64,000 nt of DNA. It comes from Octopus vulgaris (lineage: Eukaryota). The stretch lies in assembly GCA_951406725.2 (NCBI GenBank), contig OX597829.1:17050001-17114000 (forward strand). Direction: 5' to 3'. Numbering within the stretch: the first letter of the stretch is position 1; each line of letters begins with the position of its first letter. This document shows, one piece after another, positions 13,253 to 62,847 of the stretch. Below the pieces are notes generated by a model. That model was not told the origin of the DNA, searched no databases, and saw only the letters and a list, made by a program, of their open reading frames with translations. The translations under genes were made by a program, and so were the position numbers.

Positions 13253-16200
13253 AGCAAAAACTGTAAGGGCAGGGAAAGAAACACCTGCAAATTCTACCTG
13301 AGGGGGGACTGCTGGTACGGCGTTGAAGGTGCAAACTGTCGCTTTGCACATCGGAGGCCCTACCAAAACCGCACGGACGCGAGACAGAGGTCCCTCCCTC
13401 AGGGAGAACAAAAACAAAAACAAAAAGAAAAAGTTAAAAGAAGGGAAAAAAGCGCACTGACCACTACTGAAAGACGGTATGCAGATGTGGTGCGCGGAAA
13501 CCCAACAGGTGGCCAGCTTCACCCAGATGTGAGAAGGGCGGCAGCTGAACAGCAGTCTTTTTGTGCATGGCACAAAAAATTGTTCAGCAGCTGACCTGGC
13601 TACAAGCACAAAGCTGGAACTACCACCACATAAGGCCACCTCCAACAGATGCAGGATGGCCACCACATAAGGCCACCTCCAACAGATGCAGGATGGCCAC
13701 CACAGACACCAACACCAACACACACACCACAAAAATATTTCTACTGAATGTAGGAGGGCTGCTGCGCGGAAACTGTAAAAATAAAATTTCATTCCTGAGA
13801 GACCTTGTGACATGCAATCAAGCTATATGCATGGCACTCACAGAAACGCATCTTGAACCCGATATAGGTGATGCAGAAATACAAATGCCGCAATATGCAG
13901 TCATACGCACAGATAGAAAAGGGAGGAGCCATGGTGGAGTTGCAATGTACATCCGAGATGACCTCACGCCCCAGGTCCTGCTGTCATATTCAAACTCAGT
14001 ATGTGAAACTCAAATTGTACACATAAGACAACTGAATATCGTCATATGCACTACATATCGCCCACCAGATGCCCCAAAACACTCAGGCATGTTTGAAGAC
14101 TGCCTAACAAAAATAGGAGAAGTCCTCACCAACCTTGAACAGCACAACAGTGTATTCTTCATGGGTGACTTTAACCTCCCCAATGTGGAATGGCCTGGGG
14201 GGCAGATGCTCCCAGGGATGACACACCATCAGCAGGCACAGGTGGAGTCCCTGCTCCATCTCACAAATGTCTCTTTCATGGAGCAAATAGTTCTGCAACC
14301 AACAAGGGCAGATAATATACTGGATCTCTGCTTCACAAACAATATGGATATTATCCATAATGTTAATGTGATGCCGACAATGATCTCGGATAACAACATA
14401 ATAGAGCTGTCTATGTATGGAACAAAAGCCCCCGCAGACACACAGCCTATACGAAGCACCCACCATCTCTCCAACTTAAACTTTTATAAAGCCAACTGGA
14501 AGTCGATTGAGAAAGAGATCCTCAAACAGGATTGGCCTGAATGTCTCTCCACACCGGACATAAACATGAAACACAAACACTTCATGTCCATAATACAAGC
14601 CATATGTGACAAATATGTCCCAATGTGCAGGGCCAGCACACTCAAGAACAAAAACAGGATCCCTAGAGAAAGGAGGATTCTTATGAGACGACGGACAAGG
14701 ATTGCAAACCGCCTGAGCAAGCACACCAAAAGTGGTGAGAAGTCTCGGCTCGAAAGAATGCTAATGGAAACTGAGAAAAGTCTACATCAGTCCCATGAAA
14801 AGGAGAGAGCAGATAAAGAAGCTTGGGTGATAGAAAATATAAAATCAAACCCTAAAGCTTTCTTTAAGTTTGCCAAAGAGACAGCCACAGTGCACCAGAG
14901 AATAGGACCTCTCTTCCAAAAAGATGGCTCTCTCACAGGAAATCCCACGAGGATAAGTGAAATACTGAACGAACAGTTCCAAAGTGTGTTCACTACACCT
15001 CTAGGACACAGGCAAGTAAACAACCCAGAAGAATTCTTTGCCACTTTACCAGCGGCCAAAGAGACAAAAATTGAGTACATCAACATCGAAGATGATGATA
15101 TCACACTAGCCATTGATGAGATTGACACAAACTCAGCTGCTGGACCTGATGGATTCCCAGCGATCCTTCTCAAATCGTGCAAACGAGCCCTTGCAAAACC
15201 GCTACAGCTTCTTTTTCAGAGCTTTCTTACAAGTGGTAAGCTCCCAGTCAAACTGAAAGAGGGGGTAATATGCCCTATCCATAAGGGAGGTAGCAGAGCA
15301 GATGCTAAAAATTATAGGCCTATCTCTCTGACCTCACACATCAGCAAAGTCATGGAACGAATAGTCCGTAAGAAACTAATCATGTTCCTTGAAGAAAATG
15401 ACTTACTGTCTAACACCCAGCATGGATTTCGACCAGGTAGAGGCTACCTAACACAGCTCCTGCAACACTATGACTGGGTGTTGAAACAGCTACTAAATGG
15501 CTCAAATGTGGATGTAATATATCTTGACTTTGCAAAAGCCTTTGATAAAGTCGACCATGGTATGATCTGTCACAAACTGCGTGGTCTCGGCATAGGCGGG
15601 AAACTTGGAGAGTGGCTGCACAACTTCCTAAAAGACAGAAAACAGGCAGTTGTGAGCAATGGAGCCACCTCCAAGGAAACGCAAATAACAAGCGGTGTCC
15701 CACAGGGCACTGTCTTGGGGCCACTGATGTTCATAGTGGCCCTTTCAGACATGCCTTCAGTTGCTACGATGACCACCCTTGCTAGCTATGCAGATGACAC
15801 AAAAGTCACCCACGCAATACAAAACCCTGAAAATATTGCGCATCTGCAACATGAGCTGGACACAATATACAGGTGGGCTGAGGACAACAACATGCAGTTT
15901 AATGCAGGTAAGTTCCAGGCCCTGCGCTACTGGCACACTAAGGTAAATGACGTGAAGACTGGATACACTGGCCCAGGAAGAATTGCAATCCCTGAGTCAA
16001 AATCAGTGCGTGACCTGGGCATTGACATGAGCAATGATGCATCTTTCCAAATGCATATTGCTAATCTGGTGATAAAATGCAGACGGCTAGCTGGATGGAT
16101 TCTCCGAACTTTCAGAACAAGAGAGAAGGAGACACTGATGGTCCTATGGAAAACATTCGTCCTCAGCCGCTTGGACTACTGCTCCCAACTTTGGTCACCA
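13253..16200 (+). mobile_element. CR1-group LINE, 3'-truncated
   Basis: ORF1-like CCCH zinc finger at 13286-13351 (CKFYLRGDCWYGVEGANCRFAH), then the APE-RT ORF; ends abruptly at a Helitron fragment. Confidence 0.85.
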
Positions 16201-16227
16201 CGACCACCCTTGGACAGTTTTAAATGA
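13561..16227 (+). CDS. LINE ORF2: AP endonuclease plus reverse transcriptase (C-terminus chimeric, true start uncertain)
   Basis: APE motifs LNVGGL, LTETHL, GDFNLP, LDLCF, SDN; RT motifs YRPISLTS, QHGFRPGR, YLDFAKAFDKVDH, GVPQGTVLGP, YADD. Confidence 0.85.
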   Translation: MCMAQKIVQQLTWLQAQSWNYHHIRPPPTDAGWPPHKATSNRCRMATTDTNTNTHTTKIFLLNVGGLLRGNCKNKISFLRDLVTCNQAICMALTETHLEPDIGDAEIQMPQYAVIRTDRKGRSHGGVAMYIRDDLTPQVLLSYSNSVCETQIVHIRQLNIVICTTYRPPDAPKHSGMFEDCLTKIGEVLTNLEQHNSVFFMGDFNLPNVEWPGGQMLPGMTHHQQAQVESLLHLTNVSFMEQIVLQPTRADNILDLCFTNNMDIIHNVNVMPTMISDNNIIELSMYGTKAPADTQPIRSTHHLSNLNFYKANWKSIEKEILKQDWPECLSTPDINMKHKHFMSIIQAICDKYVPMCRASTLKNKNRIPRERRILMRRRTRIANRLSKHTKSGEKSRLERMLMETEKSLHQSHEKERADKEAWVIENIKSNPKAFFKFAKETATVHQRIGPLFQKDGSLTGNPTRISEILNEQFQSVFTTPLGHRQVNNPEEFFATLPAAKETKIEYINIEDDDITLAIDEIDTNSAAGPDGFPAILLKSCKRALAKPLQLLFQSFLTSGKLPVKLKEGVICPIHKGGSRADAKNYRPISLTSHISKVMERIVRKKLIMFLEENDLLSNTQHGFRPGRGYLTQLLQHYDWVLKQLLNGSNVDVIYLDFAKAFDKVDHGMICHKLRGLGIGGKLGEWLHNFLKDRKQAVVSNGATSKETQITSGVPQGTVLGPLMFIVALSDMPSVATMTTLASYADDTKVTHAIQNPENIAHLQHELDTIYRWAEDNNMQFNAGKFQALRYWHTKVNDVKTGYTGPGRIAIPESKSVRDLGIDMSNDASFQMHIANLVIKCRRLAGWILRTFRTREKETLMVLWKTFVLSRLDYCSQLWSPRPPLDSFK

Positions 16228-37745: not shown

Positions 37746-37890
37746 TTATTCTCATTACTATTAAGGCAGTGAGCTGGCAGAATCGTTAACACGCCAGACA
37801 AAATGCTTAGCGTCGTTACGTCCTGAGTTCGAATTCCGCCGAGGTCGACTTTGAATTTCATTCTTTCGGAGTCGATATACTAAAGTACCA

Positions 37891-38102
37891 TACAGTTCTA
37901 TATTTAAGAGATGAGGAAATATGTACATTATTTACATTATTTACATTTGATGGATATTTGTCCTCATCGTGTTAGTTGTTAACTCAACGTTTCGCCCTAT
38001 GCCCGTGGGCATATGCCGTAGTAGTTAAGAGCGCGGGCTACTAAGCCCAATATTCCGAAATCGATTCCAGACAGTGACCTGAATAATAATAATAATAATA
38101 AC

Positions 38103-38163
<61 letters not shown>

Positions 38164-38306
38164 TCGAAAAGTAGCTTAGGAATGAGAACCCAGGTTCGAA
38201 ATTTCACCAAGGCACCTGATGAAGGCTGGAGGGTACATCAGCTGAAACGTTGTGCTAACAACAAACAAGATGAGAACAAATATCCATCAAATGTAAATAA
38301 TGTAAA
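37891..38306 (+). mobile_element. tRNA-headed, hammerhead-bearing non-autonomous element (copy 1) with inverted 3'-end fragment
   Basis: TSD TAAAGTACCA (37881-37890, 38307-38316) inside a family A SINE; inverted piece 37891-37994; tRNA-like head 38007-38079; (AAT)n; hammerhead 38211-38256. Confidence 0.8.
38211..38256 (+). ncRNA. Type I minimal hammerhead ribozyme motif
   Basis: GGCAC-CTGATGA-A-GGCTG-gagggtacat-CAGCT-GAAA-CG-T-T-GTGCT. Confidence 0.7.
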
Positions 38307-38389
38307 TAAAGTACCAGCTGAACACTGGAGTCGATATAAAACTAACTTGACACCCAAAATGTCAAGCCTTCTGCCTATTGTAGAAAGAA

Positions 38390-42015: not shown

Positions 42016-42562
42016 TATATCTGATGAGGAGTTCTTAGTGTTTTGAAAGGATGGAAAAATAAAAGGAAGGCAGATAAATGGAATAACAACAGCTGAATAA
42101 CTATTGGAACAATTGATAAGAGTTGTATGAAGAAATATTGAAGGCATTCTTCCAAATATAAAATGGTAACTTCTTTTTTATATTTTTAATTTGAAGAACC
42201 ATTATAGCAAATCTTTATAAAAGAGAAAAAATACCCATGAAATAAAACGAAACAGCGAAAAAAAAAAAAAGGAGAGAGAGAGAGAGACAAAAATCTCGCT
42301 ATCGTTGAGATCTACGAAAGAATATTTCCCAGACATCCGAGATGGTGCTGCTATTTGACATATTTACATCCTTTGAATATATAAACAAAAAGTGTGCTTC
42401 TCCATTGACTGGCGTGAAGTCATACGCGGACACTGCAGTTTCTGATCTACAGATGGGTTTTTAGTAGTTCAGCAATCCTCACTTTTGTTAATACAGGAGG
42501 CTGAAATTCACCCCAGTTTTTTTTATTTTCTTATATGTATGTTTTTAGATTATTTTTGTATT

Positions 42563-42717
42563 CTTATTTACATTATTTACAATAGACAGATATTTGTCCT
42601 CATTTTGTTTGTTGTTAACACAACGTTTCGGCTGATATACCCTCCAGCCTTCATCAGGTGTCTTGGGGAAATTTCCAACCTGAGTTCTCATTCCTAAGGT
42701 ATTTTTCCATGTTGTTG

Positions 42718-42755
<38 letters not shown>

Positions 42756-42857
42756 GTTCAGTCACTGCTTGGAATCGAATTCGGAATCTTGGGGTTAGTA
42801 GCTTGCGCTCTTAACCACTACGCCATATGCCCGTAGGCTCTTAAATATAGAACTGTA
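42563..42857 (-). mobile_element. tRNA-headed, hammerhead-bearing element (copy 2) with inverted 3'-end fragment
   Basis: TSD TTATTTTTGTATT (42550-42562, 42858-42870); head 42760-42832; inverted 20-mer 42838-42857 is the exact reverse complement of 37891-37910. Confidence 0.8.
42617..42662 (-). ncRNA. Type I minimal hammerhead ribozyme motif
   Basis: GACAC-CTGATGA-A-GGCTG-gagggtatat-CAGCC-GAAA-CG-T-T-GTGTT. Confidence 0.75.
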
Positions 42858-43029
42858 TTATTTTTGTATTGTTTTGTATTTTTATATTATCTTGCAAAAA
42901 TTGTTTCACCATTAGAATTGCATCATCAAGCGAAACATTTTTACTAAAATAAAAATGATAAAAAGGAAGAGACAGAGAGGGAGGGAGGGAGAGAGAGAAA
43001 GATACGGAGAGAGAGATAGCGAAACAAAC

Positions 43030-53466: not shown

Positions 53467-55600
53467 GCGTGTGTGTGTGTGTGTGTGTGTGTTAAATATA
53501 TATTTTTGAATGTTATTAAGGCTCGGTTACAACTGCTAAACAATTTGAGAAATACAATTATGTATTTTTATTTTGTTTAAAACCTATTTCAAAATAGTTA
53601 ACAATATTATAATACGCTACAAATTTGTCTTAGCTATTATTATTATTATACATTACTATATAAAGTTAGCAACTTGAATGCATAAATTTACATATGCAAA
53701 TTTAGTATTTTTACTACTCCATTATTTTTAAAAAAGAAAATAGTAATAATTAAAAAAAAGCATGTATAGAAAACGATGAAGTTTCGGGTAGATAAGGCAC
53801 CGTGGTCTCTGTTAATCAGAATTATGATCTGAGTTTAAAAAAAAAATATCGCTGCCAGCATTTACGTTATTATAAGTTGCCTCTGTTCAATCTAGTTCAA
53901 CGTCTCATAACTTTCTTGATGTTCACTCACCCTCTTTGATTTAAAGGTGGAGGGGGAGTAGCATGCACCTATTATGAACGGACAAAGATAGGTATAGGCT
54001 TTAATTCTTTCAGACTTTGACACAAGGTCAGCAATTTTTAATATGCAAGCTGTTAATCATGAACAAAGATTCTAGTACTTGACAGGTGCTATATTTTATT
54101 GACACCTCAAAAAGATGAAAGGCAGAAAGGCAGTCTCATGGGTATTTCAACTCAGAATGTAAGAAGTCAGGAGAAATACCACTTACCATTTTGCCCGACA
54201 TTAGCAAGTCATACAACAAAAATGGTTAGTGGTGTCTTCTCACCTTCTTAAAAAAGAAAAGTTTTTTTTTAAATTTTACTTTAAGTTACTTATGGCCCAT
54301 TCTGAACTAATCCACATCTTACCTTGAGAAAATCTAATCAAGAAATAAGCTATATCTTTCATCCCTTTGTTACATTTGCATTCACTTGGATCACCGACTT
54401 TAAAGAGACTTAAGTTTTAGCAACATTTTGGCAAATTTTTATATATTGGGGTTTGACATATATGGACACAACTTGGCCATATGTATACACATACATAATA
54501 CTATGTGTGTGTATATATATATGTACATATATATATATATATATATGTACATATATATATATACACACACACACACACATACTATATATACACACATACA
54601 TACTAAATATGAATATACATATACATACAGACTAATGTATATATACATGCTTACATACAATATATGTATGTATATACATACATACTATATATACATAATA
54701 TATATAAGTATATCTATACATACTATATATAAGTATATATATATACATACTATATATATATATATGCATGCTATATATGTATATATACATACTATGTGTT
54801 TCTGTGTATATATATGACTTTGGACGGGTATTTTACTTGATAAACATATTTTTTAATTATATATTTATTTTATATTTATTCATTTTGGGCAATTCCACAA
54901 TTCCATAAAATTCCTTTTTTTGTTTTTGTTTTCTGACAATGATTTAATAATTTTCCGAGAAATATTTACGCTAATTTCGTAAAAAAAAAAAAAAAAAAAA
55001 AAAAGGAAAGAAATTACATCAAGCTAGCTGACAAACAATGTATATTGCATACTTGCGACATAGCAGTATAGACGTAAAAAAAAATTTTTTTTAATTAAAA
55101 ACGGAAAATTTTTGGTCCATTCTGGTTCCTACACTATAATACACTTTATGAGCGACGGAATGTTTTTTTACAATTTCATTAAGATGTAATATAAAAGTGT
55201 CTATATGAATACAATATTCATTTTTCCATTGAGAAATATATCAAAGAAAATTCACAAATAATAATAATAATAATAATAATAATAATCTGTGATAAATGTA
55301 AAAAAAAAAAAGACTAAGGCCTTTCGAAAAATATACAAACATGTAGTTTTAAGCTTTAATGGAATCGATAATTTATAAAGTGGTTTTTCAGTTCAAAATT
55401 CAATATTCTTTAATTCGTTTCAGTCATTTAACTGCGGCCATGCTGGAGCATCGCCTTTAGTCGCATAAATTCTTCATCTGTTGTGTGTATACATACATCG
55501 TTGTGCGTCTGTGAGTGTGTGTGTATGTGTAACATATATATATATAAAGTTTGACAGTGACTTTGAAGTTTCAGTTTGCTGGCCTTTGTTGGACTGCGCA

Positions 55601-55641
55601 CAGTCTGACGAGCAGAGCAAGCCGAAACTTCGGCGTCAATG
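55601..55641 (+). ncRNA. Hammerhead-like motif
   Basis: CAGT-CTGACGA-gcagagcaagcc-GAAA-C-ttcggc-G-T-C-AATG; both cores and the GUC triplet are present, helices I and II imperfect. Confidence 0.4.
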
Positions 55642-60544: not shown

Positions 60545-61719
60545 TTAGTGTGCCCAAGGTCGCCATACATTTTCTTCACTTATGTTTTGCATAACAAGAG
60601 GCTCCAGGGCAACTGGATTGTTATTATTATTATTATTATTAGTAGCAGTAGTAGAAGTAGTAGTTGTAGTAGTATTAGTAGTTGTAGTAATATAATTGAT
60701 ATTATTGTTATTGTTATCCGAACTGTATATCGGGTGTTCACTTAACGATGGAAATGTCGTTATTTTGTTAGAAGGAAATGGTGGAGACATTTTTGAAGGC
60801 AACGATATTGAACTGATGTTCGGTTCGCTATAGATCTGTAAATGATCCGAAAGTGATGGAACAACTGTGGTTGTGGTAATCTGAGGGTTTGTTGCATTTG
60901 ATAAAACTTGGGAAATATTGGACGTATTCTGAATCGGTGTTACTGCACAGGTTTTCAAACCACTGGTAGCTACTTGTGGTAAAAAAGCCATCACACTTGG
61001 AGTTGAAGAGACCGTTGTCGTCAACGGACTTACTGCCGGAGGCGTCGAGGCATATATTGGAATGATATAGCTTGGTTGCTGGGTTTGCGCTCCAGCCATT
61101 ACATTTGCTGGAAAAACAAGAGCGACCTCTCCGGACGGTAGTTTTGTAGGAATGAGCTGGACTCCACTAACGAACTTAGCTGTTTGCAACGGTGAGTTTG
61201 AAGTAAACGACAAACTCCCATTCAGCGTATTTGATATTGTTGTAGTGTTGGTGCTAGATGTACATGTACCTATTGATGTTGTTGTCGTTGTTGATGACGC
61301 TGCTGCTAGGGACGCTACTGGTGTTGTTGTACAGGCTTCTGTCGTTAGTACAATGGGCTTTGATGGAGGTGTTGGTACAGATGGCGCAGCTGCGGCCACT
61401 GTCAAAACGACAGGAGATGAAGATTGAACTTTGGGTATTGAGATCTGTGGTGTTGAGGCACTTTTGGGGGATAATGTCAGAATATTTGGTGAAAGACATG
61501 AAGAACTTTCAGATACTGAAGATGAAGAGCTTATGGAACTGTTTGGTGTCGATGACGATCCACAGTTTGTCATATAACAGGCTAAATGATTGAGGAGGCG
61601 AGCTCTGACTTCTATGTTGACTTCATCAACTGAATTCAGGTACCGGCTTACTTCTGTTGCGCATTCATTGAAACCAAGGCGATATTTATTTATAATCGTA
61701 GGATCTTCATTAGCAGAAA
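60545..61719 (-). CDS. hairy/HES-family bHLH-Orange repressor, last coding exon
   Basis: Orange domain DPTIINKYRLGFNECATEVSRYL...VRARLLNHLA, hairy-type GVQLIPTKLPSGEVALVFP, end VWRPWAH*; acceptor ttttcAG at 61720-61721, phase 1. Confidence 0.95.
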
Positions 61720-62847
61720 CTGAAAAATAATATAAAAGGACATGAGATAAAATGTTGCTATGGTAATTAGAGCATAAAACAGAGCTGGTGGCATCAACAA
61801 TATACAAAAGGGTATAATGGTAAATATTTTATAGTTAGAGAGTATTGGAACATTTCTATTCTATGATTATTTTCGGTATGAATTACATACACAGACTTGG
61901 AATCTGATGCTAAAAGATCCTTTAGGAAGCCAAATGAGACCCTGTCTTACATTAACATAATTTCTTGTCATCCAATCATTGTGTGCAGGAATCTGATGAA
62001 AGGAACCAGCAGAAGAATTTCCAGCCTATCCTCATGCAAAGAGGCTTTTTATGCCACTGCCTTGAACTACAATGTGGTCCTGTAGCCAGTAATATTTAAT
62101 CAATGGATTAGTTATATGCTAACCGTACCAAGAGAAAATTCCACTGGAAAATGCTATGGGTTCACACCACACTTCTTCCTAGTGTAAAAACTGGTGTGAA
62201 CAAGATTTTCTTTAGTTTAGTGGATACACACTTTCCCCATATGAATAGGTTCTATAAACTATTTAATAGGAAAACTTTAAGAGTTTCTTTTTGCTGTGCA
62301 CCTTGCAGGTGGCACGTAAAAAGCACCCACTACACTCTCGGAGTAGTTGGCGTTAGGAAGGGCATCCAGCTGTAGAAACTCTGCCAGATCAAGACTGGAG
62401 CCTGGTGCAGCCATCTGGTTGCCAGCCCTCAGTCAAAACCGTCCAACCCATAAAAGCATGGAAAACGGACGTTAAACGATGATGATGATGATGATGTAGG
62501 TCCACACCTGAAACTGAGGCAGGATGCTGATGAAAATAGAATGCCACATATTCCTTTAAACAGCCAGGGCAATGCAGTAACTGTTGTATATGAGGTAGAT
62601 GTGAGGTCAAAGAAGTTCAGCAGGCAGCCGAGTGTGTGGAATTGTATGGGTGTGATAGGTCCTGTCAGGATTAGATTTAACAACCATAAACCCTCTTTTA
62701 ATATCCAGGAGAGAGAGAGGGACAATGTCGTAGCCCTAGCTGTCACGTATGGACGTTGAAGGAAAGTGCCATGGATTACAACATCAAGTGGAGAATGACG
62801 GAGAACTGCAAGCAGAAGGTGCAAGCTACGCTTAGGTGAGAAAAGAA

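What the first reader, a model, noticed from the sequence alone, without database searches (positions are those of the whole stretch)
42550..42870. Second independent copy shows the same architecture and a compensatory base pair
Seen: same head-(AAT)n-hammerhead order on the minus strand with a different 13-bp TSD. An inverted 20-nt terminal piece (CTCTTAAATATAGAACTGTA) abuts the head. Helix I is GACAC/GTGTT here and GGCAC/GTGCT in copy 1 (A-U to G-C); helix II closes G-C here and G-U there. In both copies the extreme terminus exists only in the inverted piece. Inference: the RNA structure is conserved and the inversion is a regular product of integration. Two copies are too few for statistics.
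Basis: partly seen in the sequence, partly recalled or inferred. Interest (0 to 1): 0.75.

Follow-up and report, generated by a model that had tools for sequence, protein, structure and literature searches.

The report
Penelope retroelement with tRNA-derived promoter
This is a decayed, stump-sized insertion of a very abundant Penelope-type jumping gene, with a back-to-back layout already known for that class and a 'compensatory' base pair that is most likely random decay; the unusual part is that the element begins with a tRNA-derived sequence that likely acts as an RNA polymerase III promoter, possibly for the whole protein-coding element.

Summary
The sequence features are real. The unit (tRNA-like head, (AAT)n, minimal hammerhead, tail) is not a free SINE. 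It is the end repeat (pLTR) of a Penelope-like retroelement: an RT plus GIY-YIG-type ORF ends just upstream of the head, and the hammerhead and tail are that ORF's first codons.

The inversion is regular: 52 of 85 and 46 of 76 sampled insertions are inverted, TSDs peak at 12-13 bp, and 36 of 41 carry the tail on exactly one half. This architecture is published for Penelope-like elements; the data favour priming from both nicks.

The compensatory pair is not supported: 2 of 271 copies, 0.5 expected, and copy 1's own inverted half lacks the change.

Not found in print: the head derives from tRNA-Arg(ACG) with intact A/B boxes; copies stop sharply about 6 nt before it; the 2.6-kb element has no T4 run (P 0.01-0.2). 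Pol III transcription is inferred, not shown. The scan reached the same reading earlier on another piece of this genome (e1-8669850).

The parts
42550..42562 (.). Left target-site duplication (13 bp) of copy 2
   Evidence: Sequence
42564..42616 (-). Tail-less 3' end of the long half, ending in the ATGTAAATA repeats (proximal priming zone); part of the first codons of the ORF
   Evidence: ORF continuity in L174 and L164
42617..42662 (-). Minimal type I hammerhead motif: helix I GACAC/GTGTT, core CUGAUGA, extra A, helix II GGCUG/CAGCC, GAAAC-GUU with palindromic zero-loop helix III; predicted cut between 42622 and 42621. It lies inside coding sequence
   Evidence: features as described in PMC4209133
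42689..42691 (-). Likely start codon (ATG) of the element's ORF
   Evidence: Frame runs without a stop from here through the tail into ORF sequence in tandem copies; start codon use is inferred
42712..42758 (-). (AAT)n(AAC)n leader between head and start codon
42759..42838 (-). tRNA-Arg(ACG)-derived head: tRNA +1 at 42832, A box 42825-42815, B box 42782-42771; inferred RNA 5' end (-6) at 42838, in a GCCC-NN-GGGC palindrome
42838..42857 (+). Inverted 20-nt extreme 3' piece (end of the 30-40 nt PLE tail)
42858..42870 (.). Right target-site duplication of copy 2
37881..37890 (.). Copy 1 left TSD (10 bp exact), inside another repeat
37891..37994 (-). Copy 1 inverted half: tail back to the hammerhead GAAA; keeps consensus U in helix I and C at the helix II closing position
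37999..38309 (+). Copy 1 long half: palindromic junction (loop read in antisense orientation), head, (AAT)n, hammerhead 38211-38256, tail-less end
38307..38316 (.). Copy 1 right TSD

Best explanation
The insertion is a decayed, short copy of the end repeat (pLTR) of an abundant Penelope-like retroelement, likely made when the element's protein nicked both target strands 12-13 bp apart and primed two cDNAs on the same RNA, which likely starts at a tRNA-derived RNA polymerase III promoter. Shown: the ORF linkage, the architecture, TSDs, one-sided tail, shared alleles between halves, tRNA-Arg origin, sharp 5' edge. Inferred steps: (1) transcription starts about 6 nt before the tRNA-derived head and runs through (AAT)n into the ORF; (2) one nick primes at the distal site (tail end), the other 30-40 nt upstream in the ATGTAAATA repeats; (3) both cDNAs run towards the RNA 5' end and their 3' ends join head to head by microhomology, often at the GCCC-NN-GGGC palindrome; (4) priming in the first pLTR gives short stumps like this one, priming in the second gives ORF-bearing copies. 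Hammerhead cleavage is probably not needed for most insertions. My odds: PLE identity 0.97, two-nick priming 0.8, Pol III promoter 0.6, Pol III making the full coding RNA 0.4.
For: ORF directly upstream of the head in most ORF-anchored loci; RVT_1 hit 5.5e-10; 40% identity over 575 columns to P0093, whose C-terminus hits Pfam GIY-YIG. Tail continues into the ORF in tandem copies. Inverted 52 of 85 and 46 of 76; exactly one tail in 49 of 50 and 36 of 41 classifiable (20.4 expected if independent, P 3e-7); TSD mode 12-13 bp. Halves are not nested: tail-less half longer in 22, tail half longer in 18, equal in 9 of 49; overlap over 20 nt in 43 of 49. Halves share 40 non-CpG variants against 9.4 for random pairs (max 19 in 1000; 61 pairs). 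PAc protein nicks and extends both strands and starts at two internal sites that define the tail (PMC11167929). Head is 52 of 74 identical to the genome's tRNA-Arg(ACG), the best of 11 anticodon types seen. 5' ends: 47 of 90 at -7..+4, none at -8..-13, 19 run upstream; motif counts 4,006 versus 831 just upstream. Two template jumps leave exactly at -6 (L345, L353). No T>=4 run in 2,570 nt. Short and ORF-attached copies share the same alleles.
Against: No direct evidence of Pol III use: the RNA reads laid show equal depth on both strands and no start peak at the head. The T-run test is modest and model-dependent (P 0.011 mononucleotide, 0.026 codon shuffle, 0.09 Markov-1, 0.20 Markov-2), rests on one majority sequence, and G>=4 runs are also absent (P 0.04 mononucleotide). 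The 5' edge coincides with a palindrome that could itself cause fold-back (9 of 11 ends at -7 carry a fold-back signature). 4 of 41 inverted insertions were called tail-less on both sides and 1 tailed on both. Pfam GIY-YIG was not hit by the element's own decayed ORF. No copy was seen with an upstream head, whole ORF and downstream pLTR in one piece; L350 and L371 show only head-to-ORF-start. An uncapped Pol III RNA would need a non-standard route to translation, which was not tested.
Confidence: 0.7

Rival explanations
1. Independent SINE: a non-autonomous tRNA-headed hammerhead element with its own master copies, mobilised by a Penelope partner.
For: About 80% of heads have no ORF upstream; SINE-like head; schistosome Pol III hammerhead SINEs are a precedent (PMC6765202).
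Against: The head is an integral part of the autonomous element's pLTR. No allele separates 115 head-start from 49 ORF-attached units across 250 columns (smallest P 0.0055, at a CpG), and the linked subfamily variants occur in both classes. The body is the ORF start.
Confidence: 0.1
2. Same PLE, but transcribed by Pol II from a TATA-less internal promoter, as in Drosophila Penelope; the tRNA-derived head is a relic or makes only short RNAs, and the 5' edge marks a Pol II start or a fold-back hot spot.
For: Penelope's promoter is LINE-like and TATA-less (PMC2377424 abstract); pLTRs with 5' palindromes are known (PMC3846280); T-run depletion is not significant under Markov models; a capped RNA is easier to translate.
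Against: The edge lies where a tRNA-type promoter would start; A and B boxes sit at tRNA positions 8 and 51 and match consensus while ARAGORN and Rfam no longer see a tRNA; jumps at -6 without fold-back; a control LINE ORF in the window has 4 T>=4 runs against 4.3 expected.
Confidence: 0.35
3. Inversions form by snap-back self-priming at the 5' palindrome (one priming event; possibly on an antisense template, as proposed in PMC3846280) rather than by priming at both nicks.
For: Fold-back signature at 9 of 11 ends at -7; both halves end within 5 nt of each other in 9 of 49; shared alleles also fit copying.
Against: In 22 of 49 the tail-less half extends beyond the tail half, so it cannot be its copy, and the tail cannot be copied from a tail-less cDNA. 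Copy 2 is the extreme case: 20 nt versus 275 nt with no overlap. PAc extends both strands in vitro.
Confidence: 0.15
4. One reading: copies are under selection to keep the hammerhead fold, shown by compensatory pairs, and the ribozyme cut sets the inversion breakpoint.
For: The motif has all minimal-hammerhead features; one common non-CpG variant falls on the free core position N7 (T>A in about 20%, linked to a subfamily). 10 of 112 internal 5' ends lie at body 90-93, around the predicted cut (4.3 expected, P 0.012).
Against: No pair covaries (smallest P 0.079 of 13 pairs); core, helix and other columns mutate at 0.046, 0.047 and 0.044. The 90-93 excess includes one junction counted twice, sits on a TGTTAACA palindrome, and a higher peak (13) lies at 30-33. 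PAc ribozyme mutants insert normally.
Confidence: 0.07

Closest known systems
Penelope/Poseidon-type EN+ PLEs, e.g. PAc of Anolis carolinensis (PMC11167929; parts 1-2 of 4 read)
   Same: RT then GIY-YIG-type domain in one ORF; hammerhead at the ORF start inside the pLTR; two internal initiation sites that define a 30-40 nt tail; AT-rich targets (TSDs 75% AT); both strands used.
   Different: pLTR begins with a tRNA-Arg-derived A/B-box head and an (AAT)n leader; ORF starts upstream of the hammerhead rather than at stem II. Clade placement is by similarity only (an Anolis sagrei protein at 40%); no tree was built.
Adineta vaga Pen2a/Pen2/Pen3a insertions (PMC3846280; passages read) and the PLE scheme in PMC8557442 (passages read)
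   Same: Adjacent inverted 5'-truncated pLTR, tail on one end only, TSD, palindrome at the pLTR 5' end, pLTR holds the first codons.
   Different: TSD 8-10 bp there, 12-13 bp here; putative TATA/Inr promoter there, tRNA boxes here; self-priming proposed there, two-nick priming favoured here.
Minimal dimer-type PLE hammerheads (PMC4209133; passages read)
   Same: Short helix I, extra base before helix II, G10.1-C11.1, palindromic 15.2-16.2 with no loop 3.
   Different: None of note; cleavage not tested.
Schistosome Pol III hammerhead SINE-like repeats (as reviewed in PMC6765202; passages read)
   Same: Pol III-type promoter followed by a type I hammerhead in a short repeat.
   Different: Those are non-coding; here the unit is the pLTR and ORF start of an autonomous element, dispersed as inverted pairs.
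Cassandra, Helenus and Ajax (PMC10886601; abstract start and figure legend seen)
   Same: Small-RNA-gene-derived sequence inside a terminal repeat.
   Different: Those are non-autonomous LTR elements; this is an autonomous PLE.

Membership tests
EN+ Penelope-like element | Single ORF with PLE-type RT | tested here: met
   RVT_1 5.5e-10 (L178) and 2.7e-06 (L167); DKG motif visible; 891 homologues at E<=1e-30
EN+ Penelope-like element | C-terminal GIY-YIG endonuclease | tested here: met
   Indirect: L167 aligns over 575 columns (40%) with P0093, including the stretch that hits PF01541. No direct Pfam hit on the decayed copy
EN+ Penelope-like element | pLTR that contains the ORF start; partial tandems | tested here: met
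EN+ Penelope-like element | Inverted 5'-truncated copy, 30-40 nt tail on one end | tested here: met
   49 of 50 and 36 of 41 classifiable inverted insertions have one tail
EN+ Penelope-like element | Hammerhead motif in the pLTR | tested here: met
   Pattern; no Rfam hit
Penelope/Poseidon clade | RT phylogeny groups with the clade | not tested
   Only similarity hits; no tree
tRNA-derived SINE | tRNA-derived head with A and B boxes | tested here: met
tRNA-derived SINE | Non-autonomous lineage with its own masters, separate from the partner | tested here: not met
   No allele differences from ORF-attached copies; head lies within the autonomous element
tRNA-derived SINE | Pol III transcription | not testable with these tools
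   uninformative; indirect signs only
Active, selected hammerhead ribozyme | Covariation of helices among copies | tested here: not met
   285 rows from one family in one genome
Active, selected hammerhead ribozyme | 5' ends at the cleavage site in retrotransposed copies | tested here: inconclusive
   10 of 112 versus 4.3, confounded by a palindrome and matched by another peak
Non-LTR retrozyme | Head-to-tail tandem hammerhead units | tested here: not met
   Sampled copies are mostly single or head-to-head; definition from 10.64898/2026.07.22.740005

The most novel reading that the evidence does not exclude
An autonomous, protein-coding Penelope retrotransposon captured a tRNA-Arg(ACG) gene as its promoter and is transcribed end to end by RNA polymerase III: 2.6 kb purged of T4 terminators, translated without a cap through an (AAU/AAC)n leader, with one RNA primed twice to give tens of thousands of SINE-like stumps.
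Probability: 0.4. Interest if true: 0.8.

Novelty: new variant of a known kind. Interest (0 to 1): 0.5.

Why it matters
One tail per inverted insertion, a 12-13 bp stagger and shared alleles between non-nested halves fit one RNA primed from both nicks, which the PAc in vitro system can test. If the tRNA-derived head is the working promoter for the whole ORF, this would be a protein-coding mobile element expressed by Pol III, something my searches did not find in print, and a snapshot of how SINE-like repeats can arise from an autonomous element's own end. It also warns annotators that some 'SINEs' in such genomes are PLE stumps.

Tried and rejected
Rfam at gathering threshold on the window and at E<=5 or 10 on five copies gave no hammerhead or tRNA hit; ARAGORN found no tRNA in the window. 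Covariation test negative. My first end-caller allowed cheap gaps and over-called tails (15 and 9 'two-tail' cases); it was replaced. The first continuation test used a minority variant of the ORF start (3 matches, no signal). With the majority continuation, flanks match it at +1, +2, +3 and +6, but this cannot be told apart from endonuclease preference, so it is not used as proof of internal initiation. A search with a 42%-identical homologue to find other PLE families as controls returned this same family in all 30 loci examined, so the only T-run control is one LINE ORF. RNA: no RNA holder listed; the lay shows copy boundaries at the tail end and 36 nt upstream in three runs of one study, but no usable start signal; the reference copy is diverged and has an internal deletion. 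No cross-species comparison of the hammerhead or head was obtained. Independent-SINE and retrozyme readings were rejected as above. No structure prediction or tree was run.

Full report
OBSERVATION. Copy 2 lies on the minus strand from 42838 to 42564, with the last 20 nt of the element inverted at 42838-42857 and a 13-bp TSD (42550-42562 / 42858-42870). Copy 1 (37881-38316) has a 104-nt inverted half and a 10-bp exact TSD. The window's genome is 2.8 Gb in 227 contigs. I take the host to be an octopus from its size and from recalled repeat motifs; no call names it. A 24-nt tail motif has 4,478 exact matches and a 21-nt head motif 4,006, with 0 for the reversed controls.

WHAT IT IS. Several copies continue upstream of the head into a shared reading frame. 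Walking upstream gave RT motifs and a C-terminal domain. Natural open stretches hit RVT_1, and L167 aligns over 575 columns at 40% with P0093, whose C-terminus hits Pfam GIY-YIG. Downstream, the tail runs on into the ORF in tandem copies, so hammerhead and tail are roughly the first 55 codons. The unit is therefore the pLTR of a Penelope-like element. All 30 loci examined from a search with a distant homologue belonged to this family. Copies differ from the majority by 4-5% at non-CpG sites and the two halves of an insertion by 6.2%, so the sampled copies are old.

SAMPLES. Tail-anchored: 85 of the first 100 listed matches (of 4,478). Head-anchored: 90 of the first 100 listed (of 4,006); the 10 left out were repeats of loci already held, second hits in one locus, or the last row. 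All lie on the first 80 Mb of one contig, and 7 head loci are shared with the tail set.

THE INVERSION. 52 of 85 tail-anchored and 46 of 76 head-anchored loci that had a body are inverted pairs. TSDs were found in 34 of 50 and 22 of 41 testable pairs, against 0 of 150 and 0 of 123 shifted controls, with a mode of 12-13 bp. In the head set, which does not select for tails, 36 of 41 classifiable pairs have exactly one tail, 4 none and 1 two; 20.4 would be expected if ends were independent (P 3e-7). Tail-less ends fall mostly in the ATGTAAATA repeats, 30-41 nt short of the tail end. The halves are not nested: the tail-less half is longer in 22, the tail half in 18, and they are equal in 9 of 49; they overlap by more than 20 nt in 43 of 49. 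They share 40 non-CpG variants against 9.4 for random pairs (61 pairs). This fits two cDNAs primed from the two nicks on one RNA, or on two RNAs from one locus. PMC11167929 (parts 1-2 of 4 read) shows a PLE protein extending both strands from two internal start sites that delimit the tail. The layout itself is described in PMC3846280 and PMC8557442 (passages).

THE COMPENSATORY PAIR. In 285 hammerhead rows no pair covaries. The A-U to G-C change is in 2 of 271 (0.49 expected, P 0.079), against 8 A>G-only and 7 U>C-only copies. The helix II G-U (50 of 278) decays at the CpG rate. Core, helix and other non-CpG columns mutate at 0.046, 0.047 and 0.044. Copy 1's inverted half has U where its long half has C, so that change most likely arose after insertion. 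The motif is still a typical minimal, dimer-type PLE hammerhead (PMC4209133, passages), and one common non-CpG variant sits at the free N7 position. 5' ends show a small excess at the predicted cut (10 of 112 at body 90-93, 4.3 expected, P 0.012), but one junction is counted twice, the site is palindromic and another window holds 13. This is inconclusive.

THE HEAD. It aligns colinearly with the genome's tRNA genes, best with tRNA-Arg(ACG): 52 of 74 identical, z 9-10, among 11 anticodon types seen, not all. A and B boxes lie at positions 8 and 51 (box consensus recalled). ARAGORN and Rfam no longer recognise it. Of 90 head-anchored pieces, 47 end at -7..+4, 24 at +5..+30 and 19 run upstream, with no end at -8..-13. 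Genome-wide, a 21-mer 62 nt upstream has 831 matches against 4,006, and the two motifs are retained about equally in ORF-attached copies (30 and 25 of 73). Nine of 11 ends at -7 show a short fold-back; two template jumps leave exactly at -6 without one; copy 2 also ends at -6. Head-start (115) and ORF-attached (49) units show no allele difference over 250 columns, so the short copies come from the same sources. L350 and L371 start in the head and run into the ORF.

T RUNS. Pol III stops at runs of four or more T (established knowledge). The element's 2,570-nt majority has none. Expected: 4.5 (mononucleotide, P 0.011), 2.8 (codon shuffle, P 0.026), 2.5 (Markov-1, P 0.09), 1.5 (Markov-2, P 0.20). 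G>=4 runs are also absent (P 0.04 mononucleotide, 0.8 codon shuffle). A LINE ORF in the window has 4 against 4.3. Per copy, 37 runs were seen against 152 expected in 63 alignments, none at a conserved column, but these copies are not independent. The condition for Pol III read-through is met; the evidence is modest.

RNA. No RNA holder was listed. Three raw runs of one study, plus one contig set, gave equal depth on both strands and loose ends at the tail end and 36 nt upstream, as expected from passively transcribed copies. There was no start peak at the head.

LITERATURE. Nine searches listed no paper on a PLE with a tRNA-derived promoter or on twin priming in PLEs; most hits were seen only as listings. 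A 2026 octopus repeat annotation has no 'ribozyme' or 'Pol III' in its main text (PMC13282606, passages). The retrozyme preprint 10.64898/2026.07.22.740005 has no 'tRNA' (part 1 of 5 and a term search). PMC2377424 was seen as abstract only, PMC6765202 as passages, PMC10886601 as two passages. Supplements, subscription papers and Repbase/Dfam were not seen and may already note the tRNA-like segment. The scan's own notes (consulted after my analysis) hold the same reading for another piece of this genome and the same architecture in other genomes; they are not independent support.

VERDICT. Observation confirmed. The inversion is real but known, and the compensatory pair is not evidence. The new element of interest is a likely Pol III promoter in the pLTR of an autonomous PLE. 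New variant of a known kind; interest 0.5.

Noticed in passing
window 13549-16224 (+): Open 892-aa LINE ORF with AP-endonuclease and RT domains; used as the T-run control.
   Followed up: partly
window 60548-61828 (-): 427-aa open frame with a Hairy Orange domain (1e-14): likely an exon of a hairy/HES gene.
   Followed up: no
window 55590-55640 (+): A second CTGACGA...CGAAAC hammerhead-core-like pattern, unrelated to the PLE; helices unconvincing by eye, may be chance.
   Followed up: no
L345, L353, L346, L359 (about 234 nt past the tail end, inside the ORF): Four insertions jump to the same ORF position: two from the head at -6 with two extra A, two from at or near the predicted hammerhead cut (one with one extra A, one explainable by 4-nt microhomology). 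May mark a discrete RNA 3' end or jump hot spot.
   Followed up: partly
L050, L101-L103 (G000 C1, about 7.9-9.1 Mb): Near-identical ORF-bearing copies (99%) with shared junctions, probably segmental duplication rather than recent transposition.
   Followed up: no
window 37750-37890 and 38310-38350: Copy 1 is inserted inside another abundant repeat of the 180-240 bp class that recurs across the window.
   Followed up: no
pLTR positions head 70, body 59, body 128: Three linked variants define a subfamily of about 20% of copies; body 59 is the hammerhead N7 position.
   Followed up: partly
flank after the tail, 83 loci: Bases T, T, A and T are enriched at +1, +2, +3 and +6, matching the ORF continuation; either target preference or primer-template pairing.
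   Followed up: partly
G000 C2, about 211.89-211.91 Mb: Dense array of more than 20 tRNA-Arg(ACG)-like motifs.
   Followed up: no
L123: About five tandem 150-bp repeats of the ORF end plus start of the head within one copy.
   Followed up: no
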